Origin: a virus
Taxonomy: Duplodnaviria > Heunggongvirae > Uroviricota > Caudoviricetes
Direction: 5' to 3' (one strand)
Virus record (IMG/VR): IMGVR_UViG_3300002854_000123
Coordinates: 1-10,257 of that record
Length of the DNA stretch: 10,257 bases
A program made the translations under genes and the position numbers. Positions 7,629 through 8,188 of the stretch are shown here, one piece after another. A model generated the notes under the pieces. That model worked only from the letters and a program-made list of their open reading frames with translations. It ran no database searches and had not been told where the DNA came from. The number at the start of each line of letters is the position of its first letter. Position 1 is the first letter of the stretch.

Positions 7629-7868
7629 ATGCCTCGTCAACCGGATATTCGTGCTGCTTTTATTGCGGCCATACAGCAAAACCCGAAGGGCTATCTCTGC
7701 CTGCATACAGACAGATTCATCACTGAACTGCAGGAGAGGCACTGGCATTTCAGCCAGGCGGATGCAAATTCATGGATCAAACGATACCAGCCAGACTTCG
7801 CCGATAAGACGACAAACGGAAGTGAGAACCGATACTGGATCCTGCGTAACATGGGGAGGGTTTTCTAA
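7629..7868 (+). CDS. Hypothetical small protein (79 aa), first gene of an overlapping two-gene operon
   Basis: ATG at 7629 with GAGGG SD about 8 nt upstream (the ORF-track start at 7611 is GTG). Its stop overlaps the next start (TAATG). Confidence 0.5.
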   Translation: MPRQPDIRAAFIAAIQQNPKGYLCLHTDRFITELQERHWHFSQADANSWIKRYQPDFADKTTNGSENRYWILRNMGRVF

Positions 7869-8188
7869 TGGGGTTTCCATCTCCAGCCATGGATTACCAG
7901 GAGCAGCGCATGACGATAGATGTTATCTGCAGTGTAGATAACAACTGCCGGATTATTGAAACTTCATGCGGCTGGGCCGTTATAAACGTCAGTCTTAAGC
8001 CAGAAGGAGGGGATACGTTGCTGGTTAGCATGGACGGGAGAAACCAGTTCGTGAAGCTAATGGGCCACGCGCTGATCACTCAAGATGGTGAAGCGATAGA
8101 AGGGGAAGCTTTGAATGACGTAATGGTACACGGCGTTCTTACACATACACTTAACCAAGTTAAAGACGATAAATCGCCTGTAATGTAG
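7868..8188 (+). CDS. Hypothetical small protein (106 aa), second gene of the overlapping two-gene operon
   Basis: ATG overlaps the upstream TAA; GGGGAGGG SD upstream; followed by a terminator hairpin at 8201-8221. Confidence 0.5.
   Translation: MGFPSPAMDYQEQRMTIDVICSVDNNCRIIETSCGWAVINVSLKPEGGDTLLVSMDGRNQFVKLMGHALITQDGEAIEGEALNDVMVHGVLTHTLNQVKDDKSPVM

What the first reader, a model, noticed from the sequence alone, without database searches (positions are those of the whole stretch)
7629..8188. Translationally coupled pair of small unknown genes (79 aa + 106 aa) next to the prophage end
The two ORFs overlap by TAATG. Each has a good Shine-Dalgarno sequence. The pair has its own terminator (8201-8221) and lies between a DinI-like gene and the proL junction, a typical location for lysogenic-conversion, toxin-antitoxin or anti-phage morons. 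I do not recognise either protein family. The compact overlapping architecture with a probably SOS-controlled promoter makes this a candidate two-component module of undescribed function.
Basis: inference. Interest (0 to 1): 0.6.

Follow-up and report, generated by a model that had tools for sequence, protein, structure and literature searches.

The report
SOS-induced prophage winged-helix plus mini-UmuD′ operon
The two small genes form a real DNA-damage-inducible prophage operon: the second gene is a shortened, ready-made, protease-dead copy of the mutagenesis factor UmuD′ (like phage P1 HumD), and the first is an uncharacterised small winged-helix protein that almost always travels with it.

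Summary
orf79 (7629-7868) and orf106 (7868-8188) overlap by TAATG, each has a Shine-Dalgarno sequence, and a small terminator follows. A near-consensus LexA box (7586-7605) overlaps a conserved promoter.

The reading "neither family recognisable" is half wrong. orf106 is a homologue of UmuD′/HumD (hhalign probability 99.2%, E 2e-19). It starts at the post-cleavage residue (MGFPSPAxDY) and lacks the roughly 12-residue loop carrying the catalytic serine. It falls below NCBI's HumD cut-off, so it is a distinct short subfamily.

orf79 is an unannotated small family with a confident winged-helix fold and no Pfam domain. In 31 of 34 species-representative genomes it is followed directly by a UmuD′-like gene, usually through a T(A/G)ATG overlap. 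A LexA box lies 16-25 nt upstream in most loci. HumD-like genes also occur without orf79 (P1, N15, phiKO2), and one phage couples a short form to a UmuC polymerase.

Best reading: an SOS-controlled accessory operon for damage tolerance or SOS modulation. It is a variant of the known dinI/LexA-box/humD module, with orf79 as a new accessory partner. There is no support for a toxin-antitoxin or defence role. It is a new variant of a known kind, of moderate interest.

The parts
7265..7528 (-). DinI-like gene (87 aa), transcribed divergently from the same LexA-controlled intergenic region. It is a variable neighbour of the module, not part of its conserved core.
   Evidence: Pfam DinI E 8e-23. PHROG 189 'RecA filament binding protein DinI'. 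A divergent DinI-like gene is present only in the Enterobacter/E. coli subset of loci.
7573..7600 (-). Sigma-70-like promoter for the dinI-like gene (-35 TATACA, 16 nt spacer, -10 TATAAT). The -35 lies inside the LexA box.
   Evidence: Promoter scan, 10 of 12 matches.
7563..7591 (+). Promoter of the orf79-orf106 operon: -35 TTGATC (7563-7568), 17 nt spacer, -10 TACTGT (7586-7591). The -10 is the left arm of the LexA box.
   Evidence: Read. TTGATC at a fixed 17-18 nt from TACTGT is conserved in about 25 of 27 aligned loci whose flanking sequence is otherwise diverged. Function is inferred, not measured.
7586..7605 (.). LexA (SOS) box TACTGTATATGTATACAGTC. It has 2 mismatches to the 20-nt consensus TACTGTATATATATACAGTA (consensus recalled from general knowledge).
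   Evidence: Only CTGT-N8-ACAG site in the window. A box ends 16-25 nt upstream of the orf79 ATG in 34 of 45 loci, and 61 nt upstream of a truncated ORF call in one more locus (L034); 4 further loci carry one-mismatch boxes. LexA sites are annotated at the equivalent position in P1 and phiKO2.
7629..7868 (+). orf79, a small winged-helix protein of an uncharacterised family (PHROG 3893). Its C-terminal codons carry the Shine-Dalgarno sequence (7853-7860) of the next gene.
7868..8188 (+). orf106, a shortened, pre-processed UmuD′/HumD homologue ('mini-HumD'). It begins at the post-cleavage residue (M-GFPSPAMDY), lacks the catalytic-Ser loop, and is strongly acidic.
   Evidence: PHROG 3469 'UmuD-like' E 4e-47. 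NCBIfam HumD 34 bits against a cut-off of 120. PDB UmuD′ matches to the N-terminal arm. Foldseek top hits are the LexA C-terminal domain and UmuD′. hhalign against HumD/UmuD′ gives 99.2%, E 2e-19. The loop deletion is seen in alignment A4. pI about 4.3.
8201..8221 (+). Terminator-like hairpin GGGGGTTATTCCCCC followed by ATTTTT, ending the operon.
   Evidence: Terminator scan. The stem is short (5 bp), so function is inferred.
8293..8369 (-). tRNA-Pro(GGG). Homology to phage Eeyore runs to 8349, so the 3′ 57 nt of the tRNA (8293-8349) are phage-derived. This is the prophage/chromosome junction (attR).
   Evidence: ARAGORN, Rfam tRNA, and blastn of window 7266-8349 against Eeyore at 95.3%.

Best explanation
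This is a LexA-repressed accessory (moron) operon at the attachment-site end of a lambdoid prophage. After DNA damage, LexA cleavage would de-repress a TTGATC/TACTGT promoter. The promoter drives two translationally coupled genes. The first is orf79, a small winged-helix protein of an uncharacterised family. The second is orf106, a shortened member of the phage HumD/UmuD′ lineage.

orf106 is made already 'cleaved': it starts at the Gly that follows the UmuD cleavage site. It has lost the catalytic-serine loop, so it can be neither a protease nor a substrate.

The most likely function is the one shown for P1 HumD. In that reading, orf106 acts as a ready-made UmuD′-type accessory subunit that engages host UmuC and RecA* (Pol V-type translesion synthesis) without waiting for RecA-mediated UmuD processing.

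orf79 is inferred to be an accessory partner or modulator of that protein or pathway. It is genetically dependent on a HumD-like gene, but HumD-like genes do not depend on it. Two precedents exist for small proteins that bind LexA/UmuD-family proteins: DdrR with UmuDAb, and GIL01 gp7 with LexA.

The divergent DinI-like gene, a RecA-filament modulator, shares the same operator in this lineage.

Shown here: gene structure, coupling, LexA box and conserved promoter, homology and fold of both proteins, loss of the Ser loop, and synteny. Inferred: actual SOS induction, interaction of orf106 with UmuC or RecA, and any physical orf79-orf106 contact.
For: Homology of orf106 to HumD/UmuD′ rests on five results:
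- hhalign 99.2%, E 2e-19, full length.
- PHROG 'UmuD-like' E 4e-47.
- NCBIfam HumD E 2e-8.
- Foldseek top hits LexA C-terminal domain and UmuD′.
- An invariant MGFPSPAxDY N-terminus identical to the UmuD′ N-terminus.

P1 HumD is annotated as functionally complementing UmuD′, with a LexA site upstream. McLenigan et al. 1999 is cited. phiKO2 has dinI, a LexA site and a umuD-like gene in the same layout.

Phage CobraSix couples a short UmuD′-like gene, behind a LexA box, directly to a UmuC-family polymerase (IMS, IMS_C, DUF4113).

SOS control: the LexA box and the conserved -35/-10 are present across diverged loci.

Linkage: in 31 of 34 genome loci orf79 is followed immediately by a UmuD′-like ORF. 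The T(A/G)ATG overlap is seen in about 33 of 37 junctions. The pairing persists down to 30-35% orf79 identity in Erwinia, Cronobacter and Pantoea phages.

The same orf79 (96% identical) pairs with either the short (106 aa) or the long (129 aa) HumD form. The recombination break falls just after the shared N-terminal arm.

Both genes are under purifying selection. Small partners of S24-family proteins are documented.
Against: - No experiment exists on any short-form protein or on orf79.
- The short form scores far below the curated HumD threshold (34 against 120 bits) and lacks a structural loop, so UmuC or RecA binding may be altered or lost.
- No UmuC gene lies in the window or within 3 kb in any orf79 locus, and host UmuC could not be checked.
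- orf79 can occur without a UmuD′-like gene (HK225, LLS, 3 genome loci).
- Short and long HumD-like genes occur without orf79, so an obligate complex is not implied.
- The winged-helix fold is equally compatible with DNA binding.
- No complex prediction could be run.
Confidence: 0.6

Rival explanations
1. RecA*/SOS modulator. orf106 would be a non-cleavable, catalytically dead S24-domain decoy. It would occupy the RecA* filament groove or heterodimerise with host UmuD/UmuD′. Together with the DinI-like protein it would tune coprotease activity: LexA, CI and UmuD cleavage, induction of rival prophages, and mutagenesis. orf79 would assist or regulate it.
For: The fold matches LexA C-terminal domain and UmuD structures, including UmuD, LexA and CI complexes with RecA filaments (8gmt, 8gms, 8gmu). 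The catalytic Ser loop is deleted. In this lineage the gene shares its operator with a DinI-like RecA-filament binder. The related phage Eeyore uses a RecA-cleavable CI (HTH_3 plus Peptidase_S24), so RecA* activity matters directly to the phage.
Against: The experimentally studied relative, P1 HumD, promotes rather than blocks mutagenesis (annotation; title cited). CobraSix links a short form to a UmuC polymerase. The DinI association is lineage-restricted. RecA-contact residues could not be assessed.
Confidence: 0.2
2. SOS-induced transcription factor. orf79 would be a DNA-binding winged-helix regulator, or an antirepressor. It would act on phage or host promoters after damage. orf106 might serve as its dimerisation or sensor module, making a non-covalent 'split' LexA/CI-like repressor (DNA-binding domain plus S24-like domain encoded as two genes that meet exactly at the cleavage-site position).
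For: The winged-helix fold has structural neighbours that are mostly DNA-binding regulators such as PefI, Sso10a, PadR, Fur and MarR. orf106 begins exactly at the post-cleavage residue of the LexA/UmuD family. LexA-controlled antirepressors are a known induction route in other prophages (general knowledge; mentioned).
Against: - orf79 is only weakly basic to neutral (median net charge +2; 0 in distant members). Its conserved wing is acidic (D59, E66), and the exposed face of helix 3 is poorly conserved.
- No natural orf79-S24 fusion was found among 1.84 billion proteins, apart from frameshift artefacts.
- Eeyore has a self-cleaving CI, so an antirepressor is not needed.
- No slippery sequence for a programmed frameshift is visible at the junction (read).
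Confidence: 0.12
3. Toxin-antitoxin or anti-phage defence pair.
For: Two small overlapping genes sit in a moron position at a prophage end. Some SOS-induced toxin-antitoxin loci exist (general knowledge).
Against: Neither protein hits PADLOC. orf106 is a UmuD′/HumD homologue, not a toxin fold. The locus is LexA-regulated rather than showing the autoregulation usual for toxin-antitoxin loci. HumD-like genes stand alone in many phages.
Confidence: 0.04

Closest known systems
Bacteriophage P1 HumD (also N15 gp26, phiKO2 gp23, HK639 gp28): phage-encoded pre-processed UmuD′ homologues under LexA control
   Same: Both start at M-GFPSPAxDY, with no N-terminal pro-segment. Both share the C-terminal DDxxPV(I/M) tail and the S24-like beta fold. 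Both have a LexA box directly upstream, and often a divergent SOS gene (lxr in P1, dinI in phiKO2). Both sit in a moron position near the attachment site or plasmid-maintenance genes.
   Different: orf106 is 106 aa, not 129 aa. It lacks about 12 residues including the Ser60-equivalent, and the Lys97-equivalent is not conserved. It scores 34 bits against NCBIfam HumD (cut-off 120), whereas true HumD proteins score about 222. It is preceded by orf79, which P1, N15, phiKO2 and HK639 lack.
E. coli UmuD/UmuD′ (Pol V accessory subunit; PDB 1umu, 1ay9, 1i4v, 8gmt)
   Same: The N-terminal arm of UmuD′ is nearly identical (GFPSPAADYVEQR against GFPSPAMDYQEQR). The core fold is the same.
   Different: There is no pro-peptide, no cleavage site, no catalytic dyad and no adjacent umuC. 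The protein is prophage-borne. Pfam Peptidase_S24 is not detected.
impCAB operon of plasmid TP110 (DinI-like ImpC plus UmuD-like ImpA plus UmuC-like ImpB)
   Same: A small protein gene and a UmuD-like gene sit on a mobile element under SOS control. A DinI-family protein is associated with a UmuD-like protein. (Operon composition is from general knowledge; the reference is listed.)
   Different: Here the DinI-like gene is divergent, not co-transcribed. The co-transcribed small protein, orf79, is not DinI-like (no Pfam DinI hit). No polymerase gene is present.
Small partner proteins of LexA/UmuD-family proteins: Acinetobacter DdrR-UmuDAb and phage GIL01 gp7-LexA
   Same: The concept is the same: a small protein, genetically linked or co-regulated, binds an S24-family protein and changes its activity.
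   Different: No sequence relationship was detected or tested directly. DdrR and gp7 act on DNA-binding repressors, whereas orf106 has no DNA-binding domain. An orf79-orf106 interaction is only inferred.

Membership tests
UmuD′/HumD-like (LexA/S24 superfamily, non-repressor branch) | Detectable full-length homology to UmuD′/HumD | tested here: met
   hhalign of A1 against A5: 99.2%, E 2e-19, 106 aligned columns. PHROG 3469 E 4e-47.
UmuD′/HumD-like (LexA/S24 superfamily, non-repressor branch) | S24/LexA C-terminal-domain beta fold | tested here: met
   Model core pLDDT 80-90. The top 23 Foldseek PDB hits are LexA C-terminal domain, UmuD/UmuD′ and lambda CI C-terminal domain, with TM-scores of about 0.36-0.63 (0.56-0.63 for UmuD/UmuD′).
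HumD family (NCBIfam NF051876, equivalog) | Score at or above the curated cut-off of 120 bits | tested here: not met
   orf106 scores 34.4 bits. Other short forms score 39-45 bits. P1 HumD and HK140 gp28 score about 222 bits.
HumD family (NCBIfam NF051876, equivalog) | Pre-processed N-terminus: Met directly followed by the post-cleavage GFPSPA arm | tested here: met
   M1 G2 S5 P6 A7 D9 are invariant, and F3, P4 and Y10 at least 90% conserved, in 51 short-form sequences. G2 F3 P4 S5 P6 A7 D9 are invariant in the mixed alignment of short forms, long forms and UmuD.
HumD family (NCBIfam NF051876, equivalog) | Functional substitution for UmuD′ in UmuC-dependent mutagenesis | not testable with these tools
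   Known only for P1 HumD (annotation; reference).
Peptidase S24 (self-cleaving LexA/UmuD/CI) | Ser-Lys catalytic dyad and an Ala/Cys-Gly cleavage site | tested here: not met
   The loop carrying the Ser is deleted. The position equivalent to Lys97 varies (K/R/I). There is no sequence upstream of the Gly. Pfam Peptidase_S24 is not detected.
LexA (SOS) regulon member | LexA box overlapping the promoter | tested here: met
   The box at 7586-7605 overlaps the -10 of the operon promoter and the -35 of the dinI-like promoter. It is conserved in position across loci.
LexA (SOS) regulon member | LexA binding and damage-inducible transcription | not testable with these tools
   No expression or binding data are available.
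Winged helix-turn-helix DNA-binding proteins (for orf79) | H1-S1-H2-H3-S2-S3 topology | tested here: met
Winged helix-turn-helix DNA-binding proteins (for orf79) | DNA binding through helix 3 and the wing (basic, conserved surface) | tested here: inconclusive
   Net charge ranges from 0 to +3. The conserved wing residues are acidic or polar. Only N47 and W49 are invariant in helix 3.
Toxin-antitoxin / known anti-phage defence systems | Match to a known toxin, antitoxin or defence protein family | tested here: not met
   PADLOC gives 0 families for both proteins. Pfam and NCBIfam give no toxin or antitoxin hits.
DinI family (for orf79, as an ImpC analogue) | Pfam DinI domain | tested here: not met
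   orf79 has no DinI hit. The neighbouring gene at 7265-7528 does.

The most novel reading that the evidence does not exclude
orf79 is a previously unrecognised dedicated partner of phage UmuD′-type proteins. It would be a winged-helix protein that binds the invariant GFPSPAxDY arm or the acidic tail shared by short and long HumD forms. It would thereby either target, gate or chaperone a protease-dead mini-UmuD′ onto host UmuC or RecA*, or form with it a non-covalent 'split LexA-like' SOS-induced regulator. Either case would be a new layer of phage control over host mutagenesis or the SOS response.
Probability: 0.2. Interest if true: 0.7.

Novelty: new variant of a known kind. Interest (0 to 1): 0.42.

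Why it matters
Temperate phages of Enterobacter, Escherichia, Klebsiella, Erwinia, Cronobacter and Pantoea carry this SOS-controlled module. If the mini-UmuD′ activates or blocks host Pol V, these prophages alter damage-induced mutagenesis, and hence the evolution of antibiotic resistance, in clinically important Enterobacterales.

orf79 would be the first dedicated partner described for a phage UmuD′-like protein. The Ser-loop-deleted form shows which parts of UmuD′ are dispensable.

On the practical side, public annotations of this locus are inconsistent. orf79 is missed, called on the wrong strand, or named 'DNA polymerase V'. The UmuD′-like gene is often labelled hypothetical.

Tried and rejected
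- **Pfam, NCBIfam and PDB sequence searches for orf79:** only sub-threshold chance hits (DUF7669 E 0.036; HpaB; stathmin).
- **Exhaustive profile search of 1.84 billion proteins with the orf79 family:** 156 clusters, all small stand-alone proteins. The few long hits are frameshift fusions with the downstream UmuD′-like gene (P0331, P0426, P0454, P0380) or spurious eukaryotic repeats (P0416, P0444). There is no informative domain fusion.
- **Gifsy-1 STM14_3218-3220, an SOS-linked prophage locus from the literature:** unrelated genes.
- **Programmed frameshift fusing the two ORFs:** no slippery heptamer in the right frame at the junction (read). Considered unlikely.
- **Antirepressor role for orf79:** disfavoured, because the near-identical phage Eeyore has a self-cleaving CI.
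- **UmuC-like genes near orf79 loci:** none found within 3 kb.
- **Rfam scan:** only the tRNA.
- **The search for related loci with the divergent alignment A3:** failed for lack of a conserved stretch. Repeated with A2.
- **McLenigan et al. 1999:** could not be read.

Full report
**1. Observation**

The window ends in the right arm of a lambdoid prophage inserted into tRNA-Pro(GGG), next to a yejM-like gene. In order, the features are:
- tail-fibre genes at 128-3850;
- a DNA invertase at 5712-6278;
- an unknown 125-aa gene at 6548-6925 on the - strand;
- a DinI-like gene at 7265-7528 on the - strand (Pfam DinI, E 8e-23);
- the two ORFs of the finding;
- the tRNA at 8293-8369 on the - strand.

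orf79 (7629-7868) and orf106 (7868-8188) share one base in TAATG. The Shine-Dalgarno sequences are GAGGG at 7617-7621 and GGGGAGGG at 7853-7860. A short G+C hairpin with a T-run lies at 8201-8221.

Homology to the free phage Eeyore (95.3%) runs from 7266 to 8349. The module is therefore phage DNA, and the junction with the chromosome lies inside the tRNA gene.

Both ORFs are under purifying selection (median dN/dS 0.11 and 0.16).

**2. Regulation**

The 100-nt spacer between the dinI-like gene and orf79 holds the only CTGT-N8-ACAG site in the window (7588-7603). Its 20-mer, TACTGTATATGTATACAGTC, differs at two positions from the LexA consensus. The consensus is quoted from general knowledge.

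On the - strand, a TATACA-16-TATAAT promoter for the dinI-like gene overlaps the box. On the + strand, TTGATC (7563-7568) lies 17 nt upstream of TACTGT (7586-7591).

I aligned the 90 nt upstream of orf79 from 27 loci. The flanks are not conserved, but TTGATC, the 17-18 nt spacing and the LexA box are.

- An exact box ends 16-25 nt before the orf79 ATG in 34 of 45 loci; in one more (L034, a truncated ORF call) it ends 61 nt upstream.
- Four more loci carry one-mismatch boxes at the same place.
- LexA sites are annotated at the equivalent position upstream of humD in P1 and of the umuD-like gene in phiKO2.

SOS control is therefore well supported by sequence and by phylogenetic footprinting. It has not been measured.

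**3. orf106 is a shortened HumD/UmuD′ homologue**

Pfam finds nothing. Other evidence is clear:
- PHROGs places it in phrog_3469, 'UmuD-like protein' (E 4e-47).
- NCBIfam gives a sub-threshold HumD hit (34 bits, cut-off 120).
- The only PDB sequence hits are UmuD and UmuD′, aligned from residue 2 to Gly25 of UmuD, which is the first residue of UmuD′.
- A profile of 51 family members aligns end to end with a profile of P1 HumD-like proteins plus UmuD′ (hhalign 99.2%, E 2e-19).
- The AlphaFold model has core pLDDT 80-90. Its top Foldseek hits are the LexA C-terminal domain, UmuD′ and UmuD on RecA filaments, and the lambda CI C-terminal domain.

The N-terminus MGFPSPAxDY is invariant or nearly so. 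The C-terminal DDxxPV(I/M) tail is shared with HumD but not with UmuD.

Relative to HumD and UmuD, the 104-109-aa forms lack about 12 residues, including the catalytic Ser60-equivalent. The Lys97-equivalent position is variable. The protein therefore cannot self-cleave and has nothing to cleave off.

True HumD proteins (P1; HK140 gp28) score about 222 bits on the NCBI model, whereas short forms score 34-45. The short form is best described as a distinct, uncurated subfamily of the HumD lineage. It is strongly acidic (pI about 4.3).

**4. orf79**

It has no Pfam, NCBIfam or PADLOC family, only PHROG 3893 ('unknown function').

The word-indexed search found about 1,000 close relatives, nearly all 79 aa, from Enterobacterales. 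The exhaustive profile search of 1.84 billion representatives found only 156 clusters. The few long hits are frameshifted read-throughs into the downstream MGFPSPA gene, or spurious repeats.

The family is neutral to weakly basic. The conserved wing residues are acidic or polar, and only N47 and W49 are invariant in helix 3. DNA binding is possible but not indicated. The disordered C-terminal residues encode the Shine-Dalgarno sequence of the next gene.

**5. Synteny**

Among 34 loci recovered from species-representative genomes with an orf79 profile, 31 have a UmuD′-like ORF starting at the orf79 stop. The genera include Enterobacter, Leclercia, Lelliottia, Citrobacter, Kosakonia, Klebsiella, Erwinia and Pantoea.

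The junction is a T(A/G)ATG one-base overlap in about 33 of 37 scored cases. The rest have gaps of 1-3 nt.

The pairing also holds in phages mEp390, HK140, RothC, phiES15, vB_EhrS_59 and AH07, down to 30-35% orf79 identity.

The partner can be short (104-109 aa) or long (123-129 aa). L011 has an orf79 96% identical to the window's, but a 129-aa HumD. Nucleotide similarity breaks about 45-55 nt into the downstream gene, just after the shared N-terminal arm.

The dependence is one-sided:
- P1, N15, phiKO2 and HK639 (long forms) and Kp4872-1 and BUCT554 (short forms) have a LexA box followed directly by the HumD-like gene, with no orf79.
- HK225 and LLS keep orf79 but have lost the downstream gene.
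- The divergent DinI-like gene is present only in an Enterobacter/E. coli subset, and also in phiKO2.
- In phage CobraSix, a LexA box precedes a 101-aa short-form protein lacking the GFPSPA arm. That gene overlaps a 423-aa UmuC-family polymerase gene (IMS, IMS_C, DUF4113).

**6. Mechanism**

The best-supported reading is an SOS-inducible accessory operon that supplies a ready-made UmuD′-type protein. P1 HumD, the studied relative, substitutes for UmuD′ with host UmuC (annotation; reference). The CobraSix operon ties the short form to a Y-family polymerase.

orf79 is almost never found without a HumD-like gene and works with both forms. It is most simply an accessory partner or modulator acting through features shared by both forms. 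Precedents for small proteins that bind LexA/UmuD-family proteins are DdrR with UmuDAb and GIL01 gp7 with LexA. This step is inference, because no complex prediction could be run.

The rivals, in order of weight, are:
- A RecA*/SOS decoy acting with the DinI-like protein. The protease-dead S24 fold and the RecA-filament complexes among the structural neighbours support it. The known pro-mutagenic role of HumD and the UmuC linkage argue against it.
- orf79 as an SOS-induced DNA-binding regulator or antirepressor, possibly forming a 'split LexA-like' pair with orf106. Arguments against are the generic fold match, the weak charge, the absence of natural fusions, and the self-cleaving CI (HTH_3 plus Peptidase_S24) of Eeyore.
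- A toxin-antitoxin or defence pair, for which there is no support.

**7. Comparison and novelty**

The dinI / LexA box / humD moron is known and annotated in phiKO2 and P1. HumD-like genes are common in temperate enterobacterial phages.

Two things appear undescribed. One is the Ser-loop-deleted short subfamily. The other is the conserved, translationally coupled winged-helix partner. Five searches of the held paper library found no paper on either, and public records annotate orf79 inconsistently.

I classify this as a new variant of a known kind, with moderate interest (0.42). The most novel reading not excluded is that orf79 is a dedicated regulator or adaptor of phage UmuD′-type proteins, or half of a split SOS regulator. 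I give that a probability of about 0.2.

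Noticed in passing
window 3851-4961 (ORF 4065-4847 +): An AT-rich cassette (30-37% G+C against about 50% in the flanks) encodes a 260-aa DUF2971 protein. It matches the PADLOC candidate defence family PDC-S31 (E 2e-26). It is bracketed by a 26-nt inverted repeat (3851-3876 / 4936-4961). It sits between two convergent tail-fibre tip genes that both carry the S74 intramolecular-chaperone domain (3164-3850 +, 4970-5638 -), next to the DNA invertase at 5712-6278. This may be a defence-type moron lodged inside an invertible tail-fibre region.
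   Followed up: partly
L001 (phage Eeyore) 2811-3733; L002 (mEp390) 3336-3575; L005 (Erwinia phage vB_EhrS_59) 2501-2743: Public annotations of this module are inconsistent. In Eeyore the DinI CDS is extended to 161 aa across orf79 on the opposite strand, orf79 is not called, and the UmuD-like CDS starts at an internal Met. In mEp390 a small CDS is called on the wrong strand instead of orf79. In the Erwinia phage and in several UniRef entries the orf79 homologue is named 'DNA polymerase V' without any homology to it.
   Followed up: partly
L049 (Enterobacter phage CobraSix) 1462-3074: A LexA box is followed by a 101-aa short UmuD′-like gene that lacks the GFPSPA arm. That gene overlaps a 423-aa UmuC-family polymerase gene. 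Together they form a compact phage-borne Pol V-like operon built on the short subfamily.
   Followed up: partly
window 8255-8349: The phage-derived side of the attachment site supplies the 3′ 57 nt of tRNA-Pro and a strong bidirectional terminator hairpin (8255-8282) just downstream of the tRNA 3′ end. The reconstituted tRNA gene is therefore terminated by phage sequence.
   Followed up: partly
window 6548-6925 (-) and 6800-7260: A 125-aa ORF of unknown function (PHROG 16322, E 4e-37; only weak chance hits to assorted unrelated Pfam families) lies between the invertase and the dinI-like gene. An AT-rich stretch (37% G+C) with no long ORF lies between it and the dinI-like gene.
   Followed up: no
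P0331, P0380, P0426, P0454 (database proteins): Several metagenome- or assembly-derived 'proteins' of 148-187 aa are orf79 read through a frameshift into the MGFPSPA gene. They look like assembly or sequencing artefacts rather than natural fusions, but they were not checked at the DNA level.
   Followed up: no
L003 / L011 / L016 / L046 against the window: Nearly identical orf79 genes are joined to either the 106-aa or the 129-aa HumD-type gene. The homology breakpoint falls at about codon 15-18 of the downstream gene. The conserved N-terminal-arm coding sequence seems to serve as a recombination joint between module variants.
   Followed up: partly
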